Shown here in pieces: positions 2,695 through 32,000 of a stretch of 32,000 nt of DNA. Origin of the DNA: Xanthomonas campestris pv. campestris str. ATCC 33913 (GTDB lineage: Bacteria > Pseudomonadota > Gammaproteobacteria > Xanthomonadales > Xanthomonadaceae); contig NC_003902.1 of assembly GCF_000007145.1 (NCBI RefSeq), positions 575,435 through 607,434 on the forward strand, read 5' to 3'. The stretch's first letter is position 1. Each line of letters opens with the position of its first letter. A program made the position numbers and the translations under genes. Below the pieces are notes generated by a model. That model ran no database searches, was not told where the DNA came from, and worked only from the letters and a program-made list of their open reading frames with translations.

Positions 2695-2806
2695 GATGCT
2701 TGCTTGGCCCGCACTTCCGCGCGTAGCAGCTGTAACGTGGTGGAGCACGTTGCAGCGCGGTCGTCGCGCACGAGCCGGGTGCTCTAGCCGCGTGCTGCGG
2801 GTTTTA

Positions 2807-3080: not shown

Positions 3081-3089
3081 TCTCGTGTT

Positions 3090-3164: not shown

Positions 3165-3218
3165 ATATAAAACGTGTTGGTCCAAGAGTATCGCACGCCT
3201 GTGAGGGCCTGAACACCT

Positions 3219-4542: not shown

Positions 4543-5013
4543 ATGAAGGGCGATACCAAAGTCATCGAGTACCTCAACAAGGTGCTCTACAACGAACTCA
4601 CTGCGATCAACCAGTATTTTCTGCACGCCAAGATGCTGAAGAACTGGGGCCTGAAAGAACTGGCTGAGCATGAGTACAAGGAATCCATCGACGAGATGAA
4701 GCACGCCGACAAGCTGTCGGACCGCATCTTGTTCCTCGAGGGACTTCCCAATTTCCAGGCGCTGGGCAAGCTGCGCATCGGCGAGAACCCGACCGAGATG
4801 TTCCGCTGCGATCTGGCGCTTGAGCGCGAGGCGGTCGTGGTGCTGCGCGAAGCGGTGGCCTATGCGGAGACCGTCAAGGACTACGTGAGCCGCCAGCTGT
4901 TTGTGGACATCCTGGAGTCCGAAGAAGAGCACATCGATTGGCTGGAGACCCAGCTGGATCTGGTGGCGCGTATCGGCGAACCGAATTATCTGCTGACCAA
5001 GCTGGACGACTAA
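4543..5013 (+). CDS. bfr: Bacterioferritin
   Basis: 156-aa [40 protein letters not shown]..., a canonical Bfr with ferroxidase-centre residues. RBS ggaga lies 6 nt upstream. Confidence 0.95.
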
Positions 5014-5322
5014 ACGCGCTGAGGGCGGCCGTAGCTCCTACGGCTGCTGCGGTGAGGCGCTTGTGCGCGCGTGGCGTCTGCCCGCGCCCGCCCGCTGTTG
5101 CGGCTTCTCAACGTCGGCACCGTGGGCGCGATGATGGCCGCTGCACGGGCGCATCGTTATCAACCTGTGGCTGACTTGCGCGTTCGATCGCGCGTGCCAA
5201 GGCCTGGCAAAGGCGAAGACGCGGTTGGCGCTCGTTGAGAACCACGACGCTCGATTGAAGAACGACGACGCTGCGATCTTGCGAGAGAGCCGCGCCACTC
5301 AGCCACACGGCTAACCCGCCAA

Positions 5323-13142: not shown

Positions 13143-14036
13143 ATGTTCACCACCCTGGTTGCCGTCATCGTTGCGCTCGCGCTGGGGCATGTGCTGCCTG
13201 CCCAGGTGGTGCGGCTGCGCCGTTTCGAGTGGTTTGCGCAGTGGCTGCGCCGGCTGGACAGCTACGCCGCCGGGCGCGGTGCGTGGCAGGGCCGCTATGG
13301 CGTGCTGCTGGCCTTGCTGCCGGCCCTGGCGGTGGTGCTCCTGCTGCAATGGCTGCTGGACGATGTGTGGCACGGATTTCTGGCCTTGCTGTTCGGCGTG
13401 GCGGTCTTGGCCTGGACCTGGGGCCCGCGCGATCTGGACCGCGATGTGGAAGCGGTGATCGACGCCGATGAGCCGGCGCTGCGGCGCGAGGCCATTTCGC
13501 ACCTGCAGGCGGCCGGCGGCAGCGTGCATGAAGATGCGCCATCGCTGGTGGAAGCGGTGGTGGTGAACGGCCTGCGCCGCTGGTTTGCAGTGCTGTGGTG
13601 GTTCCTGCTGCTGGGGCCGTTCGGCGCGGTGCTGTATCGGCTCACTGCGTTGGCAGTGGAAAGCCCGGTGTCGGTGTTGCTGCCGCCCCGCAACCTGGCC
13701 GGCGCGCGCTGGTTGCTGGCCGCGCTGGAATGGCCGGTGGCGCAGTTGATGACGGTGTCGATGGCGCTGGTGGGTAACTTCGACACGGTGTTCCGCGCCT
13801 GGCGCGAAGCGCATGGCAATCGCTGGTCGCTGGAGCCGCATTTTCTCGGTGCGGTGGGGCGTGCCAGCGTCAGTGCCGAGCTGCGCGAAGAAGCGCACGA
13901 CTACACGGACTCGGGCTTGGTGCCAGTGTGGCGCCGCCTGCCCGAAGTGCGCGATGCAATGAGCCTGGTGTGGCGCGTGTTGCTGTTGTGGATGGTAATA
14001 CTGGCGCTGTTGGTGATTGCCGGTTGGGTGCGCTAA
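13143..14036 (+). CDS. AmpE-like regulatory membrane protein (CobD/AmpE superfamily)
   Basis: 297-aa polytopic ORF. The N-terminus MFTTLVAVIVALALGHVL... and overall architecture resemble E. coli AmpE from memory. RBS gaggagg lies 7 nt upstream. Confidence 0.7.
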   Translation: MFTTLVAVIVALALGHVLPAQVVRLRRFEWFAQWLRRLDSYAAGRGAWQGRYGVLLALLPALAVVLLLQWLLDDVWHGFLALLFGVAVLAWTWGPRDLDRDVEAVIDADEPALRREAISHLQAAGGSVHEDAPSLVEAVVVNGLRRWFAVLWWFLLLGPFGAVLYRLTALAVESPVSVLLPPRNLAGARWLLAALEWPVAQLMTVSMALVGNFDTVFRAWREAHGNRWSLEPHFLGAVGRASVSAELREEAHDYTDSGLVPVWRRLPEVRDAMSLVWRVLLLWMVILALLVIAGWVR

Positions 14037-17471: not shown

Positions 17472-17538
17472 GCGGACTCCTTCGCGACGCGCGCAGCCTA
17501 GCAGGCTTCAGCGCCGGGCTGGGAGCGCCCGCTGCGGC

Positions 17539-18441
17539 TCAGCGCACCGGGCGTCGCGCCGGGCGCTGCTGCTCCACCTGCGCGCGCAGCAGGGTGATGA
17601 AGGCGCGCGTGGCCGGGGTCGGGTCCGGCCGCCAGACCGCATAGGTGAGGAAGCGGAAGTGCTCCTTCAGCGCCAGCGCCACCACGCCACGCATGGCGCC
17701 GGCCATGGTCTGCGGCACGATGCCCACGCCCAGCCCGGCGGCGACCAGCTCGCGTACCAGATCGGCATGGGTGACTTCGTATTGCAGGCGCTGGTGCAGG
17801 CCGGCCTGGTCGAAGGCCGCGTCGATGATGCCGCGCACGCCGGCGCCGGGAATCAGCCCGGCCATCGGCTCGTCGTCCAGCTCGGCCAATGCCACGCGCT
17901 TGCGGCTGGCGAAGCGGTGGCCGGGCGCGACGATCAGCGCCAGTGCTTCTTCGTGCAGCAGCAGGCGCTGCTCCGGCACCACCACCTGCGGGCCGACGCC
18001 GACCAGGGCCAGATCCAGCCGGCCTTCGCGCAGGTCGTGCAGCAGGGCATCGCTCATGGCCGTGCGCAGGTGCACATCCACGTGCGCATGCGCGCTGCGG
18101 AAGCGGTGCAGCAGCGCCGGCACCTGCACCGTGGTGAGCGAGGAGATCTGCCCCAGCGTGAGCCGGCCGCGCACGGTGCCCAGCGCCTGGGCCATTTCTT
18201 CATGCAGGCGCTCGGCCGCGCGCAGCGTCTGCCGCGCGTTGTGCAGGAACACCTCGCCGGCGGCGGTGGGGCGTACCTGGCGGGTGCCGCGTTCGAACAG
18301 GCGCGCGCCCAGCAGCTCCTCGATCTTGGCGACCTGGTGGCTGAGTGCAGATTGCACGGTGTTGCAGCGGCGCGCGGCCGCAGTGAAGCCGCCTTCGTCG
18401 GCCACCGCCACGGCGAACTCCAGCTGGCGCAGGGTCAACAT
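17539..18441 (-). CDS. LysR-family transcriptional regulator
   Basis: ATG at 18441 gives 300 aa. The N-terminal wHTH is MLTLRQLEFAVAVADEGGFTAAARRCNTVQSALSHQVAKIEELLGARLFER. It is divergent from the MFS gene. Confidence 0.9.
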   Translation of the reverse strand: MLTLRQLEFAVAVADEGGFTAAARRCNTVQSALSHQVAKIEELLGARLFERGTRQVRPTAAGEVFLHNARQTLRAAERLHEEMAQALGTVRGRLTLGQISSLTTVQVPALLHRFRSAHAHVDVHLRTAMSDALLHDLREGRLDLALVGVGPQVVVPEQRLLLHEEALALIVAPGHRFASRKRVALAELDDEPMAGLIPGAGVRGIIDAAFDQAGLHQRLQYEVTHADLVRELVAAGLGVGIVPQTMAGAMRGVVALALKEHFRFLTYAVWRPDPTPATRAFITLLRAQVEQQRPARRPVR

Positions 18442-18541
18442 GCGATCTCGGAACAAGATGGGAACAGTGAAAACAATACATTGGAAAGATGGGTCTGTGC
18501 CGACCACACTGCGCCCCATCCACTCCACACAGGTTGCTGCC

Positions 18542-19732
18542 ATGACGTCGGAACCGATTTCCCACCCACCGCTGCCGCGCCGGCTGGTACTGCTGATGGC
18601 CGCGGCCACCGGCCTGGCCGTGGCCAGCAATTACTACGCGCAACCGCTGCTGGAAACCCTGGCGCAAGCGTTCCAGATCCAGGTGCGCACCGCCGGGGCG
18701 GTGGTGACCGCCGCACAGCTGGCCTACGCGGCCGGCCTGTTGCTGCTGGTGCCGCTGGGCGACCGGCTGGAGCGGCGCGGGCTGATCGTGGGCTTGTTTG
18801 TGCTCAGTGCGTTGGGCCTGCTGGTGAGCGCGGCCTCGCACAGTTTCGGCATGTTGCTGGCCGGCACGATCGTCACCGGCGCCAGCTCGGTGGCGGCGCA
18901 GATCCTGGTGCCGTTCGCGGCCACCCTGGCCGCCCCGCAGGAGCGCGGGCGGGTGATCGGCACGGTGATGAGCGGGCTGTTGCTGGGCATCCTGCTGGCC
19001 CGCACCGCCGCCGGGCTGCTGGCCGGTGTCGGTGGCTGGCACACCGTGTACTGGATTGCCGCGGCTCTGCTGCTGCTCACCGCCGGCCTGTTGTGGCGCG
19101 GGCTGCCGCGCCATCCAGGCAATGCGCAACTGTCGTATCCGCAGTTGGTGGGCTCGGTGCTGACGCTGCTGCGCGACGATGCGGTGCTGCGTTCGCGCTC
19201 GGTGCTGGGTGGGCTGCTGTTTGCCGGCTTCAGCATGTTCTGGACCACGCTGGCGTTCCTGCTGTCCGGGCCGGGCTATGGCTATGGCACTGCGGTGATC
19301 GGCTTGTTTGGACTGATCGGTGCTGCTGGCGCGTTGGCGGCCAACCGCTCCGGGCACTGGTCCGACCATGGGCACGGCGATCGCGTCAGCTGGGGCGGGC
19401 TGGTGATGCTGCTGCTGTCGTGGGGGCTGCTGGCCTTCGCACCGCACTCGATCGTGCTGCTGATCATCGGCGTGCTGTTGCTGGATATCGCGGTGCAGGG
19501 CGTGCATATCGCGAACCAAAGCGTGATCTATCAGCGCAATCCGCATGCACGCAACCGCATCACCTCCGCGTATATCACCTGCTATTTCATCGGTGGCGCG
19601 GTGGGCTCCACCTTGGGCACTGCGGCGTATGCGCAGGCCGGCTGGAACGGGGTGGTGATCGGCGGCGCGGTGTTGGCGCTGGCGGCGCTGGGCTGGGTGG
19701 CACTCAGTGTGGCGCGTGGCAGCTGGAAGTAA
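18542..19732 (+). CDS. MFS transporter
   Basis: ATG at 18542 in the frame of track ORF 17645..19732 gives 396 aa with about 12 hydrophobic segments. An MFS motif-A-like sequence is present (VPLGDRLERRG). Confidence 0.85.
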   Translation: MTSEPISHPPLPRRLVLLMAAATGLAVASNYYAQPLLETLAQAFQIQVRTAGAVVTAAQLAYAAGLLLLVPLGDRLERRGLIVGLFVLSALGLLVSAASHSFGMLLAGTIVTGASSVAAQILVPFAATLAAPQERGRVIGTVMSGLLLGILLARTAAGLLAGVGGWHTVYWIAAALLLLTAGLLWRGLPRHPGNAQLSYPQLVGSVLTLLRDDAVLRSRSVLGGLLFAGFSMFWTTLAFLLSGPGYGYGTAVIGLFGLIGAAGALAANRSGHWSDHGHGDRVSWGGLVMLLLSWGLLAFAPHSIVLLIIGVLLLDIAVQGVHIANQSVIYQRNPHARNRITSAYITCYFIGGAVGSTLGTAAYAQAGWNGVVIGGAVLALAALGWVALSVARGSWK

Positions 19733-19864
19733 GCGCAGCGATCAAAACGACTGCGCAGCCGCCAGGCGGGCGCGGCCGGTGCTCGGAATCGGCATGTACC
19801 CCCATACACTCCGGTTCCTCCGCACCCACCTGACGACTGCTCGCGACGTTTTGTTAGCCGCTCT
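19733..19864 (+). repeat. Dispersed direct repeat, long copy (132 bp, includes 67-bp extra block 19758-19824)
   Basis: gcgcagcgATCAAAACGACTGCGCA[67 bp]CCCACCTGACgACTGCTCGCgACGTTTTGTTAGCCGCTCT. It has the same orientation as 14091-14155. The indel is bounded by the cgca/cgca microhomology. The copy starts immediately after the MFS stop codon. Confidence 0.85.
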
Positions 19865-23674: not shown

Positions 23675-24373
23675 TTACTTTCCTAAGCCAAGGAGCTTTA
23701 AGGTAGGTGCTGCAAGTTGCTGAAAACCAGTTACTGAGGTGACGATATTTGCTAGCACTTCAGCTGCCTGTGCAAATTTTTCACCCAGGCCTTTTTCGCG
23801 AATTTCCGGGTTGGCGGCAAAGTCGTAAATTCCTGATTTAAACTGGTCAAGTACATCTTCGTTCCCAGTCAATGAGTAATCATCGATAGCAGCCAGAAGT
23901 GTCCGGATTCGCCTAATGACAGCAACTTTTGCATTTCCCGATAAATCTGAATTCTTAATTTCCTCGATTGCTTCGAGCAATAGAGACTTGGCGCGCATCA
24001 ATTCTTCGTAATCAATTGCTTTATCGCCATTTGTTAGATGGACAACTCTTGATTGCATTTTCAAGTAATTGATGGTGTGAGAGTCGATGTGAGCGTGAAA
24101 ATCTGTCCAGTTACGCGCTGCGGCAGCGCTGAGTCCGGTATAGAGCTGACTTCTCCAATGATTGACTGCGTCGGCTTGCTCTGGGTCAGCCGCGAGGACT
24201 TCTTGCGCTGCCGTATCGATCAGTTTGTAGAAAAGTCCGATTTTTCGATGGATTTCAAGTGATTCAGCTTCTCCAAATATTCTTTTCCATCCATCGATGA
24301 AGCTTGCATGTAATCGCAAGTCTCTCGCGGCGATGACAATCTTTAATAAGTGATTCGTAGCAGAGTTATTCAT
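23675..24373 (-). CDS. Low-GC orphan protein, predicted all-alpha and soluble, of unknown function, inserted between purH and purD
   Basis: 232 aa from ATG 24373 ([25 protein letters not shown]...); the track ORF starts 12 nt upstream at TTG 24385. GC is about 40-50% in three 60-nt lines I counted, against about 67% in the flanking purD sequence. An uninterrupted 699-nt frame in AT-rich DNA is unlikely by chance. I recognised no family. Confidence 0.7.
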
Positions 24374-24381
24374 CAAAAATC

Positions 24382-25965
24382 TCAATGCCGGAAGTGGCGC
24401 ACGCCGGTGAACACCATCGCCAGACCGTGTTCGTCGGCGGCGGCGATCACTTCGCCATCGCGCATCGAGCCGCCCGGCTGGATCACCGCCTGGATGCCGG
24501 CCGCCGCTGCGGCATCGATACCGTCGCGGAACGGGAAGAATGCATCCGATGCCATCACCGAGCCGGCCACCGTAAGCTTGGCTTCTTCGGCCTTGAGCGC
24601 GGCGATCTTGGCGCTGACCACGCGGCTCATCTGCCCGGCGCCCACACCAATGGTGCGGCTGTCCTTGGCATACACGATCGCGTTGGATTTGACGTACTTG
24701 GCCACGCGCCAGGCAAACAGCAGATCGGCCAGTTCGGCATCGCTGGGTGCACGCTTGGTCACCACGCTCAGCTCGCCCAGGGACATGCCGCGGTTGTCGG
24801 CCGACTGCATCAGCAGGCCAGAGCCGATCCGCTTGGTGTCGTAGTTGTTGAGGCCCGCGCCGTGCGGGATCTTGAGCACGCGCACGTTGGCCTTCTTGGT
24901 CGCGTAGTCGAGCGCGCCGGGCTCGTAGTCCGGGGCGATCAGCACTTCGACGAACTGGCGGTCCAGGATGGCCTTGGCGGTGGCCGCATCCAGCGTGCGG
25001 TTGAACGCCAGGATGCCGCCGAACGCGCTGGTGGGGTCGGTGGCATAGGCCAGCTCATAGGCATCGCCGCAGGCCACGCCCACCGCCACGCCGCACGGGT
25101 TGGCGTGCTTGACGATCACGCAAGCCGGCGCATCGAACTGGCGCACGCATTCCCACGCCGCATCGGCATCGGCCAGGTTGTTGTAGCTCAGTTCCTTGCC
25201 CTGCAGCTGCTGGAAGGTCGCCAGCGTGCCCGGCACCGGATACAGGTCGCGGTAGAACGCGCCGGACTGGTGCGGGTTCTCGCCGTAACGCAGGTCCATC
25301 ACCTTGATGAAGTTGGAATTGATCTGCGCCGGGAACGGGCTACGCGTGGGCACGCTCTCCGCACTGTCGGCCACGGCCGAGAGATAGTTGCTGATCGCCG
25401 CGTCGTACTGCGCCACGCGGTTGAACGCGGCCACCGACAGCGCAAAGCGCTGGGCCGCCGAGAGCTGGCCGTTGTTGGCCTCCAGCTCGGCCAGCAGGTC
25501 GGCGTATTGCGCCGGGTCGGTGGCCACCGCCACGCGCGCGAAATTCTTCGCCGCGCTGCGCAGCATCGCCGGGCCGCCGATGTCGATGTTTTCCACCGCA
25601 TCGGCCAGCGTGCAGTCGGCCTTGGCAGTGACCGACTCGAACGGATACAGGTTGAGCACCAGCAGGTCGATCGGCGCGATGCCGTGTTCGGCCATTACTG
25701 CTTCGTCGACACCGGCGCGGCCGAGCAGGCCGCCGTGCACCAGCGGGTGCAGGGTCTTGACGCGGCCGTCCATCATTTCCGGGAAACCGGTCAACTCGGC
25801 TACGTCCTTCACCGGCAGGCCCGCATCGCGGATTGCCTTGGCGGTGCCGCCGGTGGACAGCAGCTCGACATTGCGCGCCACCAGCGCGCGGGCCAGGTCA
25901 ATCAGGCCGGTTTTGTCGGAAACGGAGAGCAGGGCCCGGCGCACGGGCAGGAAATCAGAGGCCAT
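24382..25965 (-). CDS. purH: Bifunctional AICAR transformylase / IMP cyclohydrolase
   Basis: 527-aa ORF ...[47 protein letters not shown]...FTGVRHFRH, a canonical PurH. Confidence 0.97.
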
Positions 25966-26022
25966 GGGTGAAAGGGCAGTCGTTGCGGGGCAGCCGATAT
26001 TGTAGGCTGCGCCAGCGCTCGA

Positions 26023-26655
26023 ATGGACTCAACCACCGGTATGGCCTCGATCTATGCTCTGAAAGGACGCTTCCAGGACCTGCTGCGGCCCATGGTTGGC
26101 GCGCTCTACCGCGGCGGCATCACCGCCAATCAGGTCACCCTGATCGCGGCGGCCATCTCGGTGCTGGTGGCCGCGGTGGTGTACCGCGCCGGCACCAGCT
26201 GGCCGCTGCTGTATCTGTTGCTGCCGGTGTGGATGCTGCTGCGCATGGCGCTCAATGCCATCGACGGCATGCTGGCGCGCGAGTTCGGCCAGCAATCGCG
26301 CCTGGGCGCCTACCTCAACGAGCTGTGCGACGTGTTTGCCGATGCAACCTTGTACTTGAGCCTGCTCGGCGTGCCCGGCGTCAACGCCAGTGCGCTGTGG
26401 AGCTTTGCGCTGCTGGCCGCGCTGACCGAATACGCCGGCGTGCTCGGGCTGATGGTCGGCGCCGGCCGCCGCTACGACGGGCCGATGGGCAAGAGCGACC
26501 GCGCCTTCGTCATCGGTGCGCTCGGTCTGGCACTGGCGTTTGGCCTGCTCGGTGGGCATGGCGTCACCGGGGTCGCGCTGCTGCTGTGCCTGGCCTGCGC
26601 TGCAACCGTGTGGCGGCGCGTGCGCGCCGGCCTGGCCGACGCCGCTGCGCGCTGA
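26023..26655 (+). CDS. CDP-alcohol phosphatidyltransferase family protein (variant motif)
   Basis: 210-aa polytopic ORF. The signature [26 protein letters not shown] (nt 26254-26331) fits D-x2-DG-x2-AR-x8-G-x3-D-x3-D, but with Asn at the first and third Asp positions. ATG 26041 is an alternative start. Confidence 0.8.
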
Positions 26656-26709
26656 CGCGCAGCGACCGGTTTTCTCGATCCCCAACCTCTTTCCCCTCAG
26701 GATGATCCG

Positions 26710-28473
26710 ATGCGCACAGTTGTAGAGCGCGAGTTCGCCAGTTTCGACGGTGCGCCCCTGTTTTATCGGCACTGGCCGGTGCAGGCCGCTGCCGATGCCG
26801 CAACGCCGCCCAAGGCCGTGGTGTTGCTGCACCGTGGGCACGAGCATTCCGGGCGGGTGATGCACCTGGCCGAAGAATTGCAGCTGCCGGACGCGCAGTT
26901 CTTTGCCTGGGATGCGCGCGGCAACGGGCGCTCGCCCGGCGCGCGCGGCGACGCGCCCGGCTTCGATGCGCTAGTGCGCGACCTGGACAGTTTCATTGCG
27001 CACATCGGTGCCACCCACGGCATCGCGGTGCAGGACATCGTGGTGATCGCGCAGAGCGTGGGCGCGGTGGTGGCATCCACCTGGGTGCACGATTACGCGC
27101 CGCCGCTGCGCGCGCTGGTGCTGGCCTCGCCGGCGTTCAAGGTCAAGTTGTATGTGCCGTTTGCACGCGCGGGGCTGGCGCTGATGCAGGCGCTGCGCGG
27201 CAACTTCTTCGTCAACAGCTATGTCAAGCCGCAGTGGCTGACGCATGATCCGGCGCGCGTGGACAGCTACCGTACCGATCCGTTGATCACCCGGCCGATT
27301 TCGGTGCGTGTGCTGCTGGGGCTGTATGCGGCGGGCGACCGCGTGGTGGCCGATGCGCAGGCGATCACCGTGCCGACCCAGTTGCTGGTCTCCGGCGCGG
27401 ATTTCGTTGTGCATCGCGGCCCGCAGGACCGCTTCTATGAGAACCTGCGCTCGCCGATCAAGCAACGGCATTTTCTGCCCGGGTTCTTCCACGACACCTT
27501 GGGTGAGCGCGACCGTGCGATAGCGATTGCGCAGATCCGTCAGTTCGTCAGCGAGCGCTTTGCGCAGCCACCGGTGCGCGCGGACCTGCGCGACGCGCAT
27601 CGTGCGGGACCGAGTTTCGAAGAAGCCGAACGCCTGGCCTGGCCGTCGCAACGCAACAGCCTGCAAGACCTGCGCTGGCGCGGTGTGCGTGCGGGCCTGC
27701 GGCTGGGTGGCACATTGTCCGAAGGCATCGCGCTGGGCCTGCAGACCGGCTTCGATTCCGGCAGCACGCTGGATTACATCTATCGCAACCAGGCGCGTGG
27801 GCGCGGGCCGCTCGGCCGCATGATCGACCGCAATTACCTCAACGCCATCGGCTGGCGCGGCATCCGCATCCGTGGCGCGCATCTGGGCGAATTGCTGCGC
27901 GCAACCGCCACCCGCCTGCGCCAGGCCGGGCAACCGGTGCGCGTGTTGGACATCGCTGCCGGGCATGGCCGCTACGTGCTGGAAGCGCTGGGCAGCGGCG
28001 CGCAACGCGCCGATGCGATCGTGCTGCGCGACTTCAGCCCGCTCAATGTCACCCAGGGTGCGGCGTTGATCCAGGCGCTGGGTGCAGGCGACATCGCGCG
28101 CTTCGAGCAGGGCGATGCGTTCGATCCAGTCTCGGTGGGCGCGGTGGACCCGGCGCCCACGCTGGCTGTGGTGTCGGGCCTGTACGAACTGTTTGCCGAC
28201 AACGACCAGGTGGCGCGCTCGCTCGCTGGCGTGGCCGCGGCGGTGCCGCCCGGCGGCTATCTGCTCTACACCGGGCAGCCCTGGCATCCGCAGCTGGAAT
28301 TCATTGCGCGCGCACTCACCAGTCATCGCGATGGCGTGGCCTGGGTGATGCGCCGGCGCAGCCAGCAGGAGATGGACGGCCTGGTGGAAGCGGCCGGGTT
28401 TCGCAAGGTGGACCAGCGCATCGACGCGTTCGGCATCTTCACCGTGTCGCTGGCGCAGCGGATCAACGCATGA
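26710..28473 (+). CDS. Fusion protein: alpha/beta hydrolase (lysophospholipase/monoacylglycerol-lipase-like) plus class I SAM-dependent methyltransferase
   Basis: 587 aa. The N-terminal part has VVLLHRGHEHSGR (HG/oxyanion region), IAQSVGA (A-x-S-x-G nucleophile elbow), and later GADFVV and FFHDTLGE (candidate Asp and His). The C-terminal part has VRVLDIAAGHGRY (SAM motif I), VLRDFSP and AVVSGLYELF. Confidence 0.85.
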   Translation: MRTVVEREFASFDGAPLFYRHWPVQAAADAATPPKAVVLLHRGHEHSGRVMHLAEELQLPDAQFFAWDARGNGRSPGARGDAPGFDALVRDLDSFIAHIGATHGIAVQDIVVIAQSVGAVVASTWVHDYAPPLRALVLASPAFKVKLYVPFARAGLALMQALRGNFFVNSYVKPQWLTHDPARVDSYRTDPLITRPISVRVLLGLYAAGDRVVADAQAITVPTQLLVSGADFVVHRGPQDRFYENLRSPIKQRHFLPGFFHDTLGERDRAIAIAQIRQFVSERFAQPPVRADLRDAHRAGPSFEEAERLAWPSQRNSLQDLRWRGVRAGLRLGGTLSEGIALGLQTGFDSGSTLDYIYRNQARGRGPLGRMIDRNYLNAIGWRGIRIRGAHLGELLRATATRLRQAGQPVRVLDIAAGHGRYVLEALGSGAQRADAIVLRDFSPLNVTQGAALIQALGAGDIARFEQGDAFDPVSVGAVDPAPTLAVVSGLYELFADNDQVARSLAGVAAAVPPGGYLLYTGQPWHPQLEFIARALTSHRDGVAWVMRRRSQQEMDGLVEAAGFRKVDQRIDAFGIFTVSLAQRINA

Positions 28474-29804
28474 ATGCAGGCGCGCGCCCGTTCGCTCGTG
28501 CCGCGCTATGGCTGGCGGTGTTGGGGCCGTTCTTCTTCCTCAGCTACGGGCTGGCCAATACCTTGGCTGGGCGCGCGGCCAGCGTGCCGTCGGTGGTGTT
28601 CGGCTGGGAACACGGCATGCCGTTCTGGCCGTGGACCATCGTGCCGTACTGGTCCATCGACGTGTTCTACGCGGTATCGTTTTTTACCTGCCGCACGCGG
28701 CGGCAACTGGACACGCATGCATTGCGCCTGTTCACCGCACAGCTGCTGTGCGTGAGCTGTTTCCTGCTGTGGCCGTTGCGCTACAGCTTCGTGCGGCCCG
28801 ACACCGAGGGCGTGTTCGGGTGGTTGTTTGCGGTGCTGCTGGGCTTCGATAAGCCGTACAACCAGGCGCCATCGCTGCACATCGTGCTGCTGGTGGTGTT
28901 GTGGGTGCGCTACGGCGCGCAGCTGCAGGGCATGTGGCGTTGGCTGCTGCATGGGTGGTTCGCGCTGATCGGCATCTCGGTGCTCACCACCTACCAGCAT
29001 CATTTCATCGATGTGCCCACCGGGCTGGCGGCCGGGTGGCTATGCGTGTGGCTGTTGCCCGAGCGCATCGCAGCACCGTGGACCGATGCACGCCTCGCGC
29101 GCGACCCGCGGCGCTGGCGGCTCGCGGCGCTGTATCTGGGTGGCGCAGGCGTGACGGCTGGCATGGCGCTGTGGCTGGGCGGTGCGGCACTGTGGCTGCT
29201 GTGGATGAGTGGCGCGCTGCTGCTGGTGGCGCTCAATTACGCACTGCTGGGGCCGGGCGGGTTTCAAAAGCGCAGCGATGGGCAACTGAGCCTGGCCGCG
29301 CGCTGGTTGTATGCCCCCTATCTGCTAGCGGCGTGGTGCAACTCGCGGCTGTGGACGCGGCGCGCGCCGTTGCCGCGTGCGGTGTGCGACGACGTGTGGT
29401 TGGGGCGGATTCCGTTGCCGGCGCAGCGCGCGGCATTCGCGGTGGTGGATGTCAGTGCGGAACTGTCGTTGCGCCATGCGCATGCGAACGACCGCATCAT
29501 TCCGATGCTGGATCTGGTGGCGCCGGCGCCCGCCAGCCTGCGTGCTGCCGCGCAGGCGATCGAGGCCGCGCGCGCGCATGGGCCGGTGCTGGTGTGCTGC
29601 GCGCTGGGCTATTCGCGCAGTGCGGCCAGCGTGGTGACGTGGCTGGTGCTCAGCCAGCGCGCGGCCAGCATCAGCGAGGCCATGGCCTGCGTGCGCGCGG
29701 CGCGCCCGTCGATCGTGCTGGGGCCTCATCACCAGGCGGCGATTGCCGCTGCGTGTGCCAATGATGCTGCGGCCGATGCGCTTATCGCGCAGGTGCCTGC
29801 ATGA
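28470..29804 (+). CDS. Fusion protein: PAP2-superfamily membrane domain plus dual-specificity (Cys-based) phosphatase domain
   Basis: 444 aa; the start overlaps the upstream stop (ATGA). The N-terminal polytopic part has KPYNQAPSLH and YQHHFIDV (PSxH and HxxxD, as in PAP2/PAP2_C). The C-terminus has VLVCCALGYSRS (the C-x5-R-S P-loop). Confidence 0.85.
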   Translation: MNAGARPFARAALWLAVLGPFFFLSYGLANTLAGRAASVPSVVFGWEHGMPFWPWTIVPYWSIDVFYAVSFFTCRTRRQLDTHALRLFTAQLLCVSCFLLWPLRYSFVRPDTEGVFGWLFAVLLGFDKPYNQAPSLHIVLLVVLWVRYGAQLQGMWRWLLHGWFALIGISVLTTYQHHFIDVPTGLAAGWLCVWLLPERIAAPWTDARLARDPRRWRLAALYLGGAGVTAGMALWLGGAALWLLWMSGALLLVALNYALLGPGGFQKRSDGQLSLAARWLYAPYLLAAWCNSRLWTRRAPLPRAVCDDVWLGRIPLPAQRAAFAVVDVSAELSLRHAHANDRIIPMLDLVAPAPASLRAAAQAIEAARAHGPVLVCCALGYSRSAASVVTWLVLSQRAASISEAMACVRAARPSIVLGPHHQAAIAAACANDAAADALIAQVPA

Positions 29805-30244
29805 CCGCGGTGATGACGCTGGCCAGCATGCGCGCGCTGTTGCGCCAGGGCGCGGCAATCGACCGCTGCGCGGTGCTGCTGCTGGCTGCTGCGGTGTTGT
29901 TGCTGGGCATCACTGATGCACCAACGGTTGCGCAAGTTGCCTATGCGCTGAGCGCGTTGGCCGGCCTCGCGCAGCGCTATTGGGCGTTTCGGGTGGGCCT
30001 GGACGCCGACCTGCTCGACGCGGTGCTCGGCCAGCTGGAACGCGGTCATGCCGATGACACCCAAGCCGCCCAGCAACTCGACCAGGCCTTGCAAGACATC
30101 GGGCTGCTCCGCCATGCCCCGCCCGTACGTGATTGGACTGCGCGGTGGCGCGGCATGCGCGGCCTGCTGCGCAGGCAGCTGCTGTGCGCCGCGTTGCAGG
30201 TACTGGTCTTGGCGATCGGCCTGCTGGCCAAGGGGATGCTGTGA
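29801..30244 (+). CDS. Small putative membrane protein, unknown function
   Basis: 147 aa with ATGA overlap to the upstream gene. Two hydrophobic segments (CAVLLLAAAVLLLGI and LLCAALQVLVLAIGLLA) flank a charged helical region. I recognised no family. Confidence 0.6.
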   Translation: MTAVMTLASMRALLRQGAAIDRCAVLLLAAAVLLLGITDAPTVAQVAYALSALAGLAQRYWAFRVGLDADLLDAVLGQLERGHADDTQAAQQLDQALQDIGLLRHAPPVRDWTARWRGMRGLLRRQLLCAALQVLVLAIGLLAKGML

Positions 30245-31749
30245 CCACCTCGCCGGCGGTGCCACTGCAGGCCACACCTGAGCAGCGCGCGTTATGGCTG
30301 CGGCTGCAGGCGTATGCCTTCGGCCCAGATGCGGATGCCTTGCCTGCCTTCGAGCGCCGCGTCGCCCAGCAGGCGCACTGCAGCGTGGCGGTGGCGCAGC
30401 AATTGGTAGAGGAATACCGGCGCTTCTGTTTTCTGGCCTGCACCAGCACCGCGCAGGCCACGCCCAGCCCCTTGGTCGATCAGGTCTGGCACACCCATCT
30501 CACCGACACCCGCGAGTACTGGGACAGCTTTTGCCCGCAGGTGTTGCAGGCCACGCTGCATCATCAACCCGGCCGCGGCAGCACCGCCGAGGATGCGCGC
30601 TTCCAGCAGCAATACCGCGCCACGCTGGAGCGGTATGAGCTGCAGTTTGGCGCGCCGCCGGCACTGCTGTGGCCGGCCCCGCGGCCGGCTCCCACAGCCG
30701 TGCCGGCGGCGCACGATGATGCGTCCGATGACGCGTCATCGGACGCGTTACGTGCGCTGCGCGGCGAGCCAGCGCCGCCGTCGGTCAGGCGACTCCCGCG
30801 CGCGGTCATCGGCTGGGCGTTTGCCGCAGCGGTCGCCGCCTGGCTTGCCTACTCGGCCAATGGCGGCGTACCGCAGCCGTTGCAATGGCGCGGGGTCCAC
30901 TTCCTGCCGTTTTTCATCACGTTGATCGCGCTGGGCTGGTCCACCTCGGCGTGGTTGCGGCGGGCATTGCGTGGTGGCCGCGCACGTGCGGTCGATGCCG
31001 TTGATGCCAGCGAATTCGCCTACCTGAGCGGTGGCGCCGATCGCGTTGCCGATCTGTTGTTCACCGAGTTGCTGGTGCGAAACGCGGTTTACCTGGACCG
31101 CGATGAGGATGCACAGGCACGGCGATGGGTGCGATGGCAGCCGCGCATTGCGGTGCCGCCTGCACTGGAACCGGCGCTGCAGGCGCTGCGCAGTGCCGAA
31201 GATCCCACCGTGGCCTGGCAGGCCCTGCGCGGGCTTGCCGGGCCGGTCAGACAGCAATTGATCGACAAGGGGCTGTGGCTTGCGCCTGGCGCTGCGCGCT
31301 GGGTGCGCGCTGTCAGCACCGTGCCGGTGGCAGTGGTGTGGGTGCTGGGCGCATGCAAGCTGGTGATTGGCGTGCAGGGCGGGTCTCCGGTGGGGTACCT
31401 GCTCGGCTGCATGGTGCTGACCAGCGTGCTGGTCCTGGGCTTTTTGCTGGTGCCGGTGCGGCGCACCCTGTCCGGTGATGCGCGTCTGCAGGCGCGCCGC
31501 CAGGCAGTGCGCCGCGATGCTGCGCGGACCGGCGCCGATCCGGGCGAGGCCGTGGCGCTGTACGGCACGGTGGCGTTGGTCGGCACACCCTGGGCCAGTT
31601 ACCACGAGATCCGCGCACCGAACACGCATCACCACGACAGCACGGGTAGCAGCTGCGGCGGTGGTGGTGACGGCGGCGATGGAGGAGGAGGCGACAGCGG
31701 CGGCGATGGTGGCGGCGGCTGTGGTGGATGTGGCGGGGGAGGCGACTGA
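30241..31749 (+). CDS. Membrane protein with a GRDP/DUF1399-like N-terminal domain, a TIGR04222-like membrane region and a Gly/Asp/Cys-rich tail
   Basis: GTG at 30241 (GTGA overlap with the upstream stop), in the frame of track ORF 30133..31749. The N-domain has ...YRRFCFLA...LVDQVWHTHLTDTREYWDSFC (the WHTHxL..xxY pattern of GRDP-type domains). About four TM segments follow. The C-terminus is SSCGGGGDGGDGGGGDSGGDGGGGCGGCGGGGD. Family names are from memory. Confidence 0.7.
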   Translation: MTTSPAVPLQATPEQRALWLRLQAYAFGPDADALPAFERRVAQQAHCSVAVAQQLVEEYRRFCFLACTSTAQATPSPLVDQVWHTHLTDTREYWDSFCPQVLQATLHHQPGRGSTAEDARFQQQYRATLERYELQFGAPPALLWPAPRPAPTAVPAAHDDASDDASSDALRALRGEPAPPSVRRLPRAVIGWAFAAAVAAWLAYSANGGVPQPLQWRGVHFLPFFITLIALGWSTSAWLRRALRGGRARAVDAVDASEFAYLSGGADRVADLLFTELLVRNAVYLDRDEDAQARRWVRWQPRIAVPPALEPALQALRSAEDPTVAWQALRGLAGPVRQQLIDKGLWLAPGAARWVRAVSTVPVAVVWVLGACKLVIGVQGGSPVGYLLGCMVLTSVLVLGFLLVPVRRTLSGDARLQARRQAVRRDAARTGADPGEAVALYGTVALVGTPWASYHEIRAPNTHHHDSTGSSCGGGGDGGDGGGGDSGGDGGGGCGGCGGGGD

Positions 31750-32000
31750 TGGCACACGAGACAACCGGGCTGCGTGCGCGGCAACGGCAGCTGGCACGCG
31801 CTTTGCGCGGACGCGGCGCCACACCCAATGGCGTGTCGTGGGTGGGCATCGCCTTCGCGGCGCTGGCTGGGCTGATGTTCTACATCGCCTTGAGCGCGCC
31901 GGCGCGCGAAGGTGCCGCGCCGCTGCTGCTGGCCCTGCTCGGGCTGCAGGGACGGCTGTGGTGCAACCGCCTGGATGGCGTGCTGGCGCGTCAGGCGCGG
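31749..32000 (+). CDS. Second CDP-alcohol phosphatidyltransferase family protein, 3' end beyond the window
   Basis: Not in the ORF track because there is no stop in the window. ATG 31749 overlaps the upstream TGA by 1 nt. My translation is MAHETTGLRARQRQLARALRGRGATPNGVSWVGIAFAALAGLMFYIALSAPAREGAAPLLLALLGLQGRLWCNRLDGVLARQAR. NRLDGVLAR is the start of the family motif, again with Asn at the first Asp position. Confidence 0.75.
   Translation, partial: MAHETTGLRARQRQLARALRGRGATPNGVSWVGIAFAALAGLMFYIALSAPAREGAAPLLLALLGLQGRLWCNRLDGVLARQAR

What the first reader, a model, noticed from the sequence alone, without database searches (positions are those of the whole stretch)
26023..32000. Translationally coupled six-gene (or larger) operon that looks like an uncharacterised membrane-lipid head-group pathway
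Six consecutive plus-strand genes are present, and four junctions overlap start and stop codons: ATGA at 28470-28473, ATGA at 29801-29804, GTGA at 30241-30244 and TGATG at 31747-31751. The encoded proteins are two CDP-alcohol phosphatidyltransferase paralogs bracketing the cluster, an alpha/beta-hydrolase::SAM-methyltransferase fusion, a PAP2::Cys-phosphatase fusion, a small membrane protein, and a GRDP-like/TIGR04222-like membrane protein. Established two-step routes use a CDP-alcohol transferase followed by a phosphatase; examples are PgsA plus Pgp for phosphatidylglycerol and PIP synthase plus PIP phosphatase for bacterial phosphatidylinositol. The transferase/phosphatase pairing here fits that logic. 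The extra methyltransferase and lipase-like domains suggest further head-group methylation or deacylation. I cannot name the product, and I do not recall an experimentally defined function for this combination. The operon continues past nt 32000.
Basis: partly seen in the sequence, partly recalled or inferred. Interest (0 to 1): 0.75.

Follow-up and report, generated by a model that had tools for sequence, protein, structure and literature searches.

The report
Xanthomonas version of ynbABCD lipid operon
This is the Xanthomonas campestris copy, enlarged to eight genes, of the widespread bacterial ynbABCD operon, a self-contained side branch of phospholipid synthesis that databases already name but whose lipid product has never been identified.

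Summary
The six plus-strand genes and all four start/stop overlaps are exactly as described. The window is X. campestris pv. campestris 8004. In that genome the operon continues with two more overlapping genes, a PlsC-like acyltransferase and a CdsA-like cytidylyltransferase. That makes 8 genes, with 6 of 7 junctions overlapping.

The cluster already has a name. g1, g2, g3 and g8 are full-length homologues (48, 55, 41 and 38% identity) of E. coli YnbA, YnbC, YnbD and YnbB. Only YnbB has been studied: it is a CdsA paralogue that makes CDP-diacylglycerol (CDP-DAG) and has been linked to the glycolipid MPIase. YnbD cannot replace PGP or C55-PP phosphatases. No product is known for the operon.

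Gene order is conserved in 80/80 Lysobacteraceae loci. Reduced forms occur in alpha-, beta- and gammaproteobacteria, Fusobacterium and cyanobacteria.
- **Constant part:** YnbA plus a private CdsA, often with an acyltransferase.
- **Add-ons:** the hydrolase-methyltransferase and the PAP2/Cys-phosphatase.
- **Lineage-specific insertion:** TIGR04222 plus the second transferase.

YnbA is a distinct PIP-synthase-like subfamily. Two of its four metal-binding Asp are Asn, and the phosphate-binding Arg pair is kept.

The PG and PI analogies do not. This is a known orphan pathway.

The parts
25966..26040 (.). Short divergent intergenic region between purH (minus strand, 24382-25965) and the first operon gene. 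The operon promoter is presumed to lie here.
   Evidence: ORF map. purH is adjacent and divergent in 76/80 related loci. No sigma-70 consensus match was found, so the promoter is inferred, not shown.
26023..26655 (+). g1: YnbA-type CDP-alcohol phosphatidyltransferase (210 aa as the longest ORF; probable start ATG 26041, giving 204 aa).
   Evidence: PF01066 at 33.9 bits against a cut-off of 22. 48% identity to E. coli YnbA, E 5e-44. The family profile aligns over its full length to M. tuberculosis PIP synthase 6h53, E 1.4e-13. The signature N78-x2-D81-G...G95-x3-N99-E100-x2-D103-x3-D107 plus R160 and R199 is conserved in about 95% of 150 diverse representatives.
26710..28473 (+). g2: YnbC-type fusion. 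It joins a monoacylglycerol-lipase-like alpha/beta hydrolase (aa 33-268, nt 26806-27513) to a Methyltransf_20 SAM-dependent methyltransferase (aa 276-584, nt 27535-28461).
   Evidence: Pfam E 2.5e-68 and 5e-155. 55% identity over the full length to E. coli YnbC. Nearest solved structures to the hydrolase half are monoacylglycerol lipases, E 5e-15. The S116/D231/H262 triad and the SAM motifs are conserved across phyla. The AF2 model of the methyltransferase half has pLDDT 87. Its Foldseek matches are generic small-molecule methyltransferases, and the best TM-score is to an uncharacterised Bordetella protein, 3ocj.
28470..29804 (+). g3: YnbD-type fusion. It joins an eight-helix PAP2-like membrane domain (aa 1-265) to a C-terminal dual-specificity (Cys) phosphatase domain (aa ~300-438).
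   Evidence: DSPc at 41.2 bits against a cut-off of 33.5; PAP2 at 18.8 bits, below its cut-off. 41% identity over the full length to E. coli YnbD. Invariant residues are PSLH137, QHH178-x2-D181 and C376-x5-R382. The AF2 model has pLDDT 84 and pTM 0.86. Foldseek matches the C-terminal domain to DSPs with TM about 0.74. The topology (PAP2 site periplasmic, DSP cytoplasmic) is my inference from the positive-inside rule.
29801..30244 (+). g4: small membrane protein (147 aa; hydrophobic segments near both ends) with no family assignment.
   Evidence: No Pfam or NCBIfam hit. A gene of the same size and position follows the PAP2/DSP gene in Shinella and Burkholderia, with 27-30% identity. It is detectable in 60/64 Lysobacteraceae loci and in several metagenomic loci. 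It is absent from E. coli.
30241..31749 (+). g5: TIGR04222-domain membrane protein (502 aa) with a soluble N-terminal domain (aa ~14-137) and a Gly/Asp/Cys-rich C-terminal tail. It is part of an accessory two-gene insertion.
   Evidence: TIGR04222 at 150.9 bits against a cut-off of 43. The precomputed Pfam label is PF27765 UCP032817-like. It is present together with g6 in only 19/64 related loci. The N-terminal domain recurs in unrelated contexts, a Ralstonia T6SS locus and Gloeothece.
31749..32000 (+). g6 (5' part, 84 of 215 codons): second, divergent YnbA-like CDP-alcohol phosphatidyltransferase paralogue. It is the accessory partner of g5.
   Evidence: Translation. The full gene occupies window-equivalent 31749-32396 in CP000050. 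Its X. phaseoli orthologue scores PF01066 27.2 bits against a cut-off of 22 and is 26% identical to YnbA. Beyond the window follow g7, the PlsC-like acyltransferase (equivalent 32393-33025), and g8, the CdsA/YnbB-like gene (33022-33996), both joined by ATGA overlaps.

Best explanation
The locus is the X. campestris pv. campestris 8004 orthologue of the ynbABCD-type gene cluster, enlarged to eight genes. It encodes a private, membrane-bound side branch of CDP-diacylglycerol (CDP-DAG) dependent lipid synthesis.

Proposed sequence of steps:
1. The PlsC-like acyltransferase (g7) supplies phosphatidic acid. This is inferred from family membership.
2. The CdsA/YnbB-like enzyme (g8) activates it to CDP-DAG. 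This activity has been shown in vitro for E. coli YnbB.
3. The YnbA-type transferase (g1) couples the phosphatidyl group to a small acceptor that carries a phosphate or another anionic group. This is inferred from retention of the Arg pair that binds the inositol-phosphate phosphate in M. tuberculosis PIP synthase. The acceptor is not inositol phosphate.
4. Tailoring follows. The cytoplasmic Cys-phosphatase domain of g3 removes a head-group phosphate. The Methyltransf_20 domain of g2 methylates the lipid or its head group. The monoacylglycerol-lipase-like domain of g2 deacylates it. The PAP2-like domain of g3 acts on the lipid at the periplasmic face, either as a phosphatase or as a sphingomyelin-synthase-like head-group transferase. 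All of step 4 is inferred.

g4 is a conserved small membrane subunit of unknown role. g5 and g6 are a lineage-specific insertion that adds a second, divergent transferase.

The end product is an unidentified minor phospholipid or lipid-linked head group, probably methylated. It is not bulk PG, PI, PS or PC.
For: Identity with ynbABCD:
- Full-length blastp matches link g1 to YnbA (48%), g2 to YnbC (55%), g3 to YnbD (41%) and g8 to YnbB (38%).
- Some public sources name relatives of g2 'putative protein YnbC'.
- The window's own genome shows all 8 genes, with 6 of 7 junctions overlapping.

Co-conservation:
- In Lysobacteraceae, g1-g2-g3 are contiguous in 80/80 loci and g7-g8 are colinear in 64/64 loci long enough to show them.
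- The same six-gene core occurs in Shinella and Burkholderia and is reported in P. protegens (PMC13541209).
- Cyanobacteria carry YnbA, CdsA, an acyltransferase and the methyltransferase alone.
- Fusobacterium carries YnbC, YnbA and CdsA.
- Of 19 metagenomic loci with at least 5 kb on both sides of YnbA, 16 have an adjacent CdsA-like gene, 12 an acyltransferase, 10 the hydrolase-methyltransferase and 8 a PAP2-like gene.
- Natural fusions exist: YnbA+hydrolase+methyltransferase (807 aa) and YnbA+acyltransferase.

Biochemistry of homologues:
- E. coli YnbB makes CDP-DAG but cannot replace CdsA for bulk phospholipid (PMC6362211; PMC7018664).

Active sites:
- The YnbA profile aligns over its full length to M. 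tuberculosis PIP synthase.
- The equivalents of R155 and R195, the phosphate site described in PMC6506517, are R160 and R199. They are conserved in 142 and 136 of 151 sequences.
- The hydrolase triad and SAM motifs are conserved.
- The CX5R loop and the PAP2 C2 and C3 histidines and aspartate are invariant.
Against: - No lipid product has ever been attributed to the operon in any organism. None was found in ten full-text searches.
- E. coli ynbB and ynbD knockouts have no reported lipid or growth phenotype (PMC6362211, PMC7413402).
- About 15% of complete E. coli genomes lack the region.
- Two of the four canonical metal-binding Asp of the transferase motif are Asn in YnbA. The chemistry may therefore differ from a standard CDP-alcohol transfer.
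- The PAP2 domain scores below the Pfam cut-off and lacks the C1 KxxxxxxRP motif.
- The methyltransferase's acceptor is completely open. Foldseek gives only generic small-molecule methyltransferases.
- In one Kosakonia locus the same methyltransferase family sits with fatty-acid-synthase-like genes. This would favour an acyl-chain or carboxyl acceptor rather than a head group.
- 8 of 19 well-flanked metagenomic loci have no methyltransferase at all. Methylation is therefore not intrinsic to the core pathway.
- The order of the tailoring steps and the membrane topology are inference only.
Confidence: 0.6

Rival explanations
1. The operon makes an MPIase-type glycolipid. The CdsA paralogue makes CDP-DAG, and it or YnbA condenses CDP-DAG with GlcNAc-1-phosphate to give GlcNAc-PP-diacylglycerol, the anchor of the membrane-protein-integrase glycolipid. 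The PAP2 domain would then recycle diacylglycerol pyrophosphate at the periplasmic face.
For: - Overproducing E. coli YnbB raises MPIase. YnbB restores MPIase, but not bulk phospholipid, when CdsA is depleted (PMC6362211, PMC7018664).
- The enzymes for later MPIase steps are unknown (PMC11413397).
- YnbA keeps an anion-binding site and has lost two active-site carboxylates. My inference is that this would suit a phosphate nucleophile forming a pyrophosphate link.
- Lipid pyrophosphates are typical PAP2 substrates (own knowledge).
Against: - A ynbB knockout leaves MPIase unchanged, and the authors assign compound I synthesis to CdsA/YnbB themselves. YnbA, YnbC and YnbD are never mentioned.
- The MPIase glycan is the enterobacterial-common-antigen trisaccharide. 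The cluster, however, occurs in Xanthomonadales, Rhizobiaceae, Burkholderia, Fusobacterium and cyanobacteria.
- No glycosyltransferase is conserved in any version of the cluster.
- MPIase is reported to be essential, yet about 15% of E. coli genomes lack ynbABCD.
- Nothing in MPIase explains a methyltransferase or a lipase.
Confidence: 0.12
2. One reading: a classical two-step route in which g1 is a PGP-synthase-like or PIP-synthase-like enzyme and g3 is the matching PGP or PIP phosphatase. This would yield PG, PI or a close analogue, which is then methylated or deacylated.
For: - The nearest named models and structures for g1 are archaetidylinositol-phosphate synthase (E 4e-18), PIP synthase (E 2e-13; PDB 6h53) and, more weakly, PgsA.
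- A Cys-phosphatase of the DSP fold (PTPMT1) is the mitochondrial PGP phosphatase (own knowledge).
- The phosphate-binding Arg pair is retained.
Against: - All equivalog scores are far below cut-off: 65.8 against 180, 50.5 against 170 and 18.4 against 109.
- The Arg94 equivalent, described as critical and conserved in Ins-P users (PMC6506517), is Val, Ile or Leu in YnbA.
- No inositol-phosphate synthase is present in any version of the cluster.
- Overexpressed E. coli YnbD does not rescue a strain without PGP phosphatases (PMC7413402).
- Cyanobacterial, Fusobacterium and triad-only versions have no phosphatase at all.
Confidence: 0.1
3. The module remodels or degrades lipids, or makes a signal, rather than building a new lipid. 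The lipase releases a fatty acid or lyso-lipid from a dedicated phospholipid pool. The methyltransferase turns it into a methyl ester or methylates the acyl chain. The acyltransferase re-acylates, as in a Lands-type cycle. The phosphatases dismantle the head group.
For: - The hydrolase is closest to monoacylglycerol lipases and lysophospholipases.
- The cluster combines building and degrading enzymes.
- A Kosakonia locus pairs the same methyltransferase family with ACP, ketosynthase, dehydratase and ketoreductase genes.
- A third architecture adds a patatin-like phospholipase and a short-chain dehydrogenase.
- The pairing of a hydrolase with a methyltransferase recalls BioH/BioC (own knowledge).
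Against: - The constant partners are anabolic: the CdsA-like synthase and the CDP-alcohol transferase.
- The Kosakonia copy has a degenerate hydrolase triad and is only about 36-38% identical, so it may be a functionally different branch.
- Cyanobacterial versions have a methyltransferase without any lipase.
Confidence: 0.1
4. The operon is a bacterial counterpart of the mitochondrial-type cardiolipin route. g1 acts as PGP synthase, the DSP domain as PGP phosphatase, g6 as a CDP-alcohol-type cardiolipin synthase, and the lipase and acyltransferase as remodelling enzymes.
For: - There is a part-by-part resemblance to Tam41/Pgs1/PTPMT1/Crd1/Cld1/Taz1 (own knowledge).
- Xanthomonas has two transferase paralogues in the operon.
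Against: - g6 is missing from 45 of 64 related loci and from E. coli, Shinella, Burkholderia, cyanobacteria and Fusobacterium.
- YnbD fails as a PGP phosphatase (PMC7413402).
- The methyltransferase and the PAP2 domain have no role in this scheme.
Confidence: 0.04

Closest known systems
Escherichia coli ynbABCD operon (b1408-b1411)
   Same: All four proteins have full-length homologues here with the same domain fusions. YnbA matches g1 (48%). YnbC, the hydrolase::Methyltransf_20 fusion, matches g2 (55%). YnbD, the PAP2::DSP fusion, matches g3 (41%). YnbB, the CdsA paralogue, matches g8 (38%). All lie on one strand in one tight cluster.
   Different: The gene order differs: A-B-C-D in E. coli and A-C-D-x-(x-x)-acyltransferase-B here. 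Xanthomonas adds a small membrane protein (g4), a PlsC-like acyltransferase (g7) and the accessory TIGR04222 gene plus second transferase (g5, g6). E. coli has none of these. The E. coli operon is H-NS-silenced and activated by BglJ-RcsB (PMC3950696). Regulation in Xanthomonas is unknown.
Phosphatidylinositol-phosphate synthase (M. tuberculosis PgsA1, PDB 6h53) and archaetidylinositol-phosphate synthase
   Same: These are the best structural and sequence relatives of g1, with a full-length profile alignment at E 1.4e-13. D71 and the catalytic base D93 are conserved as D81 and D103. The phosphate-binding R155 and R195 are conserved as R160 and R199.
   Different: Metal ligands D68 and D89 are Asn (N78, N99), with an invariant Glu100 beside N99. 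The Ins-P-specific R94 is hydrophobic. NCBIfam scores are a third or less of the cut-offs. No inositol-phosphate synthase is linked to the cluster.
PgsA + PgpA/B/C route to phosphatidylglycerol
   Same: The logic is the same: a CDP-DAG-dependent transferase followed by a lipid phosphate phosphatase. PgpB is a PAP2 enzyme, like the N-terminal half of g3.
   Different: The g1 match to PgsA is marginal: 18.4 bits against a cut-off of 109 and PDB 7drj at E 5e-4. E. coli YnbD does not complement loss of the PGP phosphatases or the C55-PP phosphatases (PMC7413402). The g3 PAP2 domain lacks the C1 motif.
MPIase (membrane protein integrase glycolipid) biosynthesis via CdsA/YnbB
   Same: This is the only experimentally supported link for any gene of the cluster. 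YnbB makes CDP-DAG and supports synthesis of GlcNAc-PP-DAG and MPIase (PMC6362211).
   Different: The link was shown only for YnbB, only in E. coli and only on overexpression or CdsA depletion. The other ynb genes are untested. The cluster's phyletic range far exceeds that of the ECA-type glycan. No glycosyltransferases are linked to it.
Sphingomyelin synthase / inositol-phosphorylceramide synthase type PAP2 proteins (Pfam PAP2_C, PAP2_3)
   Same: g3 keeps only the His-His-Asp motifs (PSLH, QHHxxD) and lacks C1, as these head-group transferases do (own knowledge). Some close homologues carry a precomputed PAP2_3 hit.
   Different: The window protein itself matches PAP2_C only at E 6.8. Foldseek returned no PAP2 or SMS structure in its top 50, because the DSP domain dominated the search. 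Transferase activity as opposed to phosphatase activity is untested.

Membership tests
ynbABCD-type gene cluster | A YnbA homologue: a small CDP-alcohol phosphatidyltransferase of the N-x2-DG...NE-x2-D subfamily | tested here: met
   48% identity, E 5e-44. The signature is shared with 150 representatives.
ynbABCD-type gene cluster | A YnbC homologue: a Hydrolase_4 :: Methyltransf_20 fusion of about 585 aa | tested here: met
   55% identity over 580 aa. Both Pfam domains are present.
ynbABCD-type gene cluster | A YnbD homologue: a PAP2-like membrane domain :: DSP phosphatase fusion of about 430-445 aa | tested here: met
   41% identity over 418 aa. The motifs are invariant.
ynbABCD-type gene cluster | A YnbB homologue (CdsA paralogue) in the same operon | tested here: met
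   This gene is not in the window. It is present 2 kb downstream in the same genome, CP000050. The X. phaseoli orthologue is 38% identical to YnbB.
CDP-alcohol phosphatidyltransferase (PF01066) | Pfam score above the gathering threshold | tested here: met
   g1 scores 33.9 bits against 22. The full-length g6 orthologue scores 27.2 against 22.
CDP-alcohol phosphatidyltransferase (PF01066) | The canonical motif D-x2-DG-x2-AR-x8-G-x3-D-x3-D, with four metal-binding Asp | tested here: not met
   The first and third Asp are Asn (N78, N99) in 144 and 147 of 151 family members. The second and fourth Asp are kept, and E100 and D107 are additionally conserved.
Phosphatidylinositol-phosphate synthase (NF045883) / archaetidylinositol-phosphate synthase (NF040950) | Score at or above the NCBIfam equivalog cut-off | tested here: not met
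   50.5 against 170 and 65.8 against 180.
Phosphatidylinositol-phosphate synthase (NF045883) / archaetidylinositol-phosphate synthase (NF040950) | Arg94 (M. tuberculosis numbering), conserved in Ins-P-using enzymes | tested here: not met
   The equivalent position 104 is V, I, L or M in 140 of 151 sequences. The residue's role is taken from PMC6506517.
Phosphatidylinositol-phosphate synthase (NF045883) / archaetidylinositol-phosphate synthase (NF040950) | The phosphate-binding pair Arg155 and Arg195 | tested here: met
   R160 is present in 142/151 and R199 in 136/151.
PGP synthase PgsA (TIGR00560) | Score at or above the equivalog cut-off | tested here: not met
   18.4 against 109.1.
PAP2 lipid phosphate phosphatase (PF01569) | Pfam gathering score, and the three motifs C1 KxxxxxxRP, C2 PSGH and C3 SRxxxxxHxxxD | tested here: inconclusive
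   The score is 18.8 against 27.2. C2-like PSLH137 and C3-like HH178xxD181 are invariant. No C1 motif was found.
PGP phosphatase / C55-PP phosphatase function | Complements strains that lack these phosphatases | not testable with these tools
   Published result for the E. coli orthologue: YnbD fails to complement both strains (PMC7413402).
Dual-specificity (Cys) phosphatase (PF00782) | Pfam gathering score, the CX5R(S/T) P-loop and the DSP fold | tested here: met
   41.2 against 33.5. The loop is C376ALGYSR382S, and HCALGLSRS in E. coli. Foldseek TM is about 0.74 to Tk-PTP and DUSPs.
Methyltransf_20 (PF12147) class I SAM methyltransferase | Pfam score, and SAM-binding motifs I-IV | tested here: met
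   515.6 bits. The motifs LDIAAGHG, RD, DAF and VSGLYE are conserved. The model has a Rossmann fold with pLDDT 87.
Hydrolase_4 / monoacylglycerol-lipase-like alpha/beta hydrolase | Pfam score, and a Ser-Asp-His triad | tested here: met
   230.4 bits. S116 (in AQSVG), D231 and H262 are conserved in all lipid-context homologues.
TIGR04222 domain membrane protein | NCBIfam score at or above the cut-off | tested here: met
   150.9 against 43.
   There is no hit at E <= 10. The collection's precomputed label is PF27765 UCP032817-like.

The most novel reading that the evidence does not exclude
YnbA-type transferases are a mechanistically distinct branch of the CDP-alcohol phosphotransferases. Two metal-binding Asp are replaced by Asn, and the anion site is retained. 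On this reading, the enzyme, fed by its private CdsA and acyltransferase, makes a phospholipid class not yet described in bacteria. One possibility is a lipid pyrophosphate (DAG-PP-X), formed by attack of a phosphate monoester on CDP-DAG. Another is a head group whose terminal phosphate is then methylated by the Methyltransf_20 enzyme, a bacterial analogue of haloarchaeal PGP-methyl ester. The pathway would be conserved from cyanobacteria and Fusobacterium to E. coli and Xanthomonas.
Probability: 0.2. Interest if true: 0.8.

Novelty: new member of a known kind. Interest (0 to 1): 0.5.

Why it matters
Bacterial phospholipid synthesis is usually regarded as a closed book, especially in E. coli. 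This operon, however, encodes a complete parallel line: its own acyltransferase, CDP-DAG synthase, head-group transferase, methyltransferase, lipase and two phosphatases. It is found across at least three phyla (Pseudomonadota, Fusobacteriota, Cyanobacteriota) and in 85% of complete E. coli genomes, and it has no known product.

Identifying the lipid would fill a real gap in the bacterial lipid map. It would clarify the disputed biosynthesis of the MPIase glycolipid. It would also explain a conserved variant of the CDP-alcohol transferase active site. For Xanthomonas and Stenotrophomonas it may bear on envelope adaptation in plant and clinical settings.

As a genome-scan finding, the cluster itself is not new. 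What is new here is the comparative dissection:
- the constant core as opposed to the add-on modules;
- the YnbA sequence signature;
- the predicted two-sided topology of YnbD;
- the lineage-specific insertion.

Tried and rejected
1. Literature. They covered Pfam and TIGR names, NCBI product names, the ynb gene names, MPIase, PGP-Me and Xanthomonas. No paper assigns a product to the operon. 'Methyltransf_20/PF12147' and 'ynb operon' returned nothing. The haloarchaeal PGP-Me methyltransferase is not identified in the paper consulted, so that analogy rests on my own reasoning.

2. Fold search of the methyltransferase domain. It returned only generic small-molecule O- and C-methyltransferases and one uncharacterised Bordetella protein. 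There is no substrate clue.

3. Fold search of full-length g3. DSP hits swamped the results and gave no information on the PAP2 half.

4. Search for a conserved extra neighbour that would reveal the head-group acceptor. Candidates were an inositol-phosphate synthase, a sugar-phosphate enzyme or a glycosyltransferase. Clustering the flanking ORFs of 80 metagenomic loci gave only a patatin-like phospholipase plus SDR pair in a subset. Flanks around the three-gene versions were unrelated housekeeping genes.

5. The idea that the methyltransferase belongs to the invariant core. It held for cyanobacteria and Fusobacterium but was rejected by the metagenomic loci: 8 of 19 lack it.

6. The TIGR04222 gene as a lipid-pathway component. 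Its N-terminal domain occurs in unrelated contexts, and the g5-g6 pair is absent from most relatives.

7. Promoter and terminator scans. No sigma-70 promoter-like site was found, and terminator-like matches were no more frequent than in shuffled sequence.

8. Rfam. Nothing lies within the operon.

Full report
**1. Observation**

The ORF list and direct reading of the junctions confirm six consecutive plus-strand genes:
- g1, 26023-26655
- g2, 26710-28473
- g3, 28470-29804
- g4, 29801-30244
- g5, 30241-31749
- g6, from 31749 onward

The overlaps are ATGA, ATGA, GTGA and TGATG at exactly the stated coordinates. Third-position GC of 0.78-0.88 in these frames supports coding.

Domain assignments were mostly confirmed. 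They are CDP-OH_P_transf in g1, Hydrolase_4 plus Methyltransf_20 in g2, DSPc in g3 and TIGR04222 in g5. PAP2 in g3 scores below the Pfam threshold, but its C2 and C3 motifs are invariant. g4 matches nothing.

The GRDP/DUF1399 label for the g5 N-terminus was not reproduced. Most of the best 150 representatives of g1 start aligning at residue 7-9, so the real start is probably ATG 26041.

**2. Source and true extent**

g3 is encoded, residue for residue, in Xanthomonas campestris pv. campestris 8004 (CP000050.1). The first 3 kb of that fetched locus match the window exactly, at window position 20470.

In that genome the operon continues. g6 is 215 aa. It is followed by a 210-aa PlsC-family acyltransferase (g7) and a 324-aa CTP_transf_1/CdsA-like protein (g8). 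Each is joined to its neighbour by an ATGA overlap, and a gap of about 1 kb follows.

The unit is therefore eight genes, with six of seven junctions overlapping. The two transferases do not bracket it.

**3. Identity**

Some public sources name close relatives of g2 'putative protein YnbC'. Direct comparison with E. coli K-12 gave these matches:

| Window gene | E. coli protein | Identity | E-value or extent |
|---|---|---|---|
| g1 | YnbA | 48% | E 5e-44 |
| g2 | YnbC | 55% | 580 aa aligned |
| g3 | YnbD | 41% | 418 aa aligned |
| g8 orthologue | YnbB | 38% | - |

The same unusual fusions, hydrolase::Methyltransf_20 and PAP2::DSP, are present in both organisms. The locus is therefore the Xanthomonas form of the ynbABCD operon.

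**4. What is published**

- YnbB is a non-essential CdsA paralogue that makes CDP-DAG in vitro. It raises the level of the glycolipid MPIase when overproduced. It restores MPIase, but not bulk phospholipid, in CdsA-depleted cells (PMC6362211, PMC7018664).
- Later MPIase enzymes are unknown (PMC11413397).
[quoted passage not shown] Overexpressed, it complements neither C55-PP-phosphatase-deficient nor PGP-phosphatase-deficient strains (PMC7413402).
- The ynbA promoter is activated by BglJ-RcsB (PMC3950696).
- A P. protegens study lists the same cluster as a 'membrane phospholipid remodelling/biogenesis module' without experiments (PMC13541209).
- No paper in the searchable library treats the operon as a whole or names a product.

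**5. Conservation**

Counts come from 80 Lysobacteraceae loci.
- g1-g2-g3 are contiguous in 80/80 loci.
- g7-g8 follow, colinear, in 64/64 loci long enough to show them.
- g4 is detectable in 60/64.
- g5 plus g6 occur in only 19/64. They are present in most Xanthomonas and some Lysobacter, and absent from all Stenotrophomonas.

Architectures outside the family:

| Organism or locus | Genes present |
|---|---|
| Shinella, Burkholderia | the six-gene core, including a g4-like protein |
| E. coli IncF plasmid | YnbA, CdsA, acyltransferase, YnbC, truncated YnbD |
| Three cyanobacterial lineages | YnbA, CdsA, acyltransferase, methyltransferase alone |
| Fusobacterium | YnbC, YnbA, CdsA |
| Moraxella and 6-7 metagenomic loci | adds a patatin-like phospholipase and an SDR |

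A further scan covered metagenomic loci. Nineteen of them had at least 5 kb on both sides of YnbA:
- 16 have an adjacent CdsA-like gene.
- 12 have an acyltransferase.
- 10 have the hydrolase-methyltransferase.
- 8 have a PAP2-like gene.
- 4 have a DSP domain.
- 8 are bare YnbA+CdsA+acyltransferase cassettes with unrelated flanking genes.

Natural fusions join YnbA to YnbC (804-807 aa) and YnbA to the acyltransferase.

The constant part is therefore YnbA with its own CDP-DAG synthase, usually with an acyltransferase. The methyltransferase/lipase and the PAP2/DSP protein are tailoring modules. The Xanthomonas operon is the most elaborate version. In E. coli the operon is present in 4623 of 5426 complete genomes.

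**6. Enzymology inferred from sequence and models**

*YnbA.* The family profile aligns end to end with M. tuberculosis PIP synthase (E 1.4e-13). Residue roles in that structure come from PMC6506517. Conservation was counted in 150 representatives at 50% identity.
- The catalytic base D93 and D71 are kept, as D103 and D81.
- Metal ligands D68 and D89 are Asn: N78 in 144/151 and N99 in 147/151.
- Glu100 is invariant and D107 is conserved.
- The phosphate-binding R155 and R195 are kept, as R160 and R199.
- The Ins-P-specific R94 is hydrophobic.

I infer an acceptor that carries a phosphate or another anion but is not inositol phosphate, and a remodelled metal site. The family has 159 clusters at E <= 1e-30.

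*YnbC.* The Ser116-Asp231-His262 triad and the SAM motifs are conserved across phyla. The hydrolase half is closest to monoacylglycerol lipases. The methyltransferase model (pLDDT 87) resembles small-molecule methyltransferases in general, and most closely an uncharacterised Bordetella protein. Its acceptor remains open.

*YnbD.* The model (pLDDT 84, pTM 0.86) has eight membrane helices followed by a DSP domain. Foldseek TM to that domain is about 0.74. PSLH137, QHH178xxD181 and C376x5R382 are invariant, and there is no C1 motif. From the positive-inside rule I infer that the PAP2-type site faces the periplasm and the Cys-phosphatase the cytoplasm. The two halves would then act on opposite leaflets.

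**7. Mechanism proposed**

The steps are: acyltransferase to PA; YnbB-like enzyme to CDP-DAG; YnbA to phosphatidyl-X(-P); then cytoplasmic dephosphorylation, methylation and deacylation; then a periplasmic PAP2-type step. Only the CDP-DAG synthase activity has been shown, and only for the E. coli homologue. Everything else is inference.

The rivals are set out with their evidence in the rival explanations: MPIase anchor synthesis, a classical PG or PI two-step route, a remodelling or signal module, and a mitochondrial-type cardiolipin route. The general transferase-plus-phosphatase logic remains plausible.

**8. Accessory pair g5-g6**

TIGR04222 proteins are diverse membrane proteins with Gly/Ser/Cys-rich tails. 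Some are suspected substrates of MNIO enzymes (PMC12452194). The N-terminal domain of g5 recurs in a Ralstonia T6SS locus and next to a methyltransferase in Gloeothece. g6 shares the Asn at the third motif position with YnbA. The role of the pair is unknown. It is a lineage-specific insertion between g4 and g7.

**9. Verdict**

It is a member of a known but functionally orphan gene cluster, not a new kind of system.

Interest is moderate. The product of a phylogenetically broad, complete parallel phospholipid pathway is still unknown. The analysis here gives concrete, testable predictions: an anionic acceptor, the N/N/E active-site variant, modular tailoring and a two-sided YnbD.

Noticed in passing
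window 15549-17471 (-): A 640-aa fusion of an MFS transporter with a PlsC-family acyltransferase domain. It resembles LplT/Aas-type lysophospholipid uptake and re-acylation proteins (my reading of the Pfam hits). This is a second lipid-remodelling gene about 9 kb upstream of the operon.
   Followed up: no
window 23675-24385 (-): A 236-aa ORF with no Pfam family lies between purD and purH, in a stretch of lower GC (0.58-0.60 against about 0.68 elsewhere). It may be a foreign insertion in the purine-gene neighbourhood.
   Followed up: no
window 19794-19859 (+): Match to the Xanthomonas small RNA sX9 (Rfam RF02228, 57.6 bits against a gathering score of 44). It overlaps the annotated end of a long ORF (17470-19833).
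   Followed up: no
window 5323-9579 (-): Adjacent hybrid histidine kinase (HisKA-HATPase-REC-Hpt) and REC-GGDEF-EAL response regulator. They look like a two-component c-di-GMP signalling pair.
   Followed up: no
window 3093-3295 (-): Two tRNA genes (Rfam) overlap a mechanically listed 258-aa ORF (2440-3216) that has no family. That ORF is probably not a gene.
   Followed up: no
L083 (E. coli IncFIA/IncFIC conjugative plasmid NZ_CP045714), about 4800-8950: A second, divergent ynb-like cluster rides on conjugative enterobacterial plasmids. It has YnbA, CdsA, an acyltransferase and YnbC, followed by only a 59-residue match to the N-terminus of YnbD. It is about 57% identical to the Xanthomonas YnbC. 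The pathway is therefore horizontally mobile.
   Followed up: partly
L087 (Kosakonia cowanii plasmid p888-76-2), 2751-8476: A Methyltransf_20 protein whose hydrolase triad is degenerate sits after ACP, ketosynthase, MaoC dehydratase, FabG and metal-dependent hydrolase genes. No phospholipid genes are nearby. This hints that the methyltransferase family can act on acyl-chain-derived substrates.
   Followed up: partly
L084 (Moraxella osloensis plasmid) and metagenomic loci L098, L133, L148, L171, L174: A recurrent third architecture inserts a patatin-like phospholipase and a short-chain dehydrogenase between YnbA and a PAP2-like gene, next to the hydrolase-methyltransferase. The reductase suggests a redox step in some versions of the pathway.
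   Followed up: partly
L009 (X. arboricola) 13553-13967 and L012 (X. cucurbitae) 8159-8293: Only short remnants of g5 and g6 remain between g4 and the acyltransferase gene. This indicates secondary loss of the accessory pair in some Xanthomonas species.
   Followed up: no
L033 (record titled Nocardiopsis yanglingensis strain A18): A locus about 81% identical to the window's g2, with the Stenotrophomonas gene order, is filed under an actinomycete name. Contamination or mislabelling of that assembly is likely.
   Followed up: no
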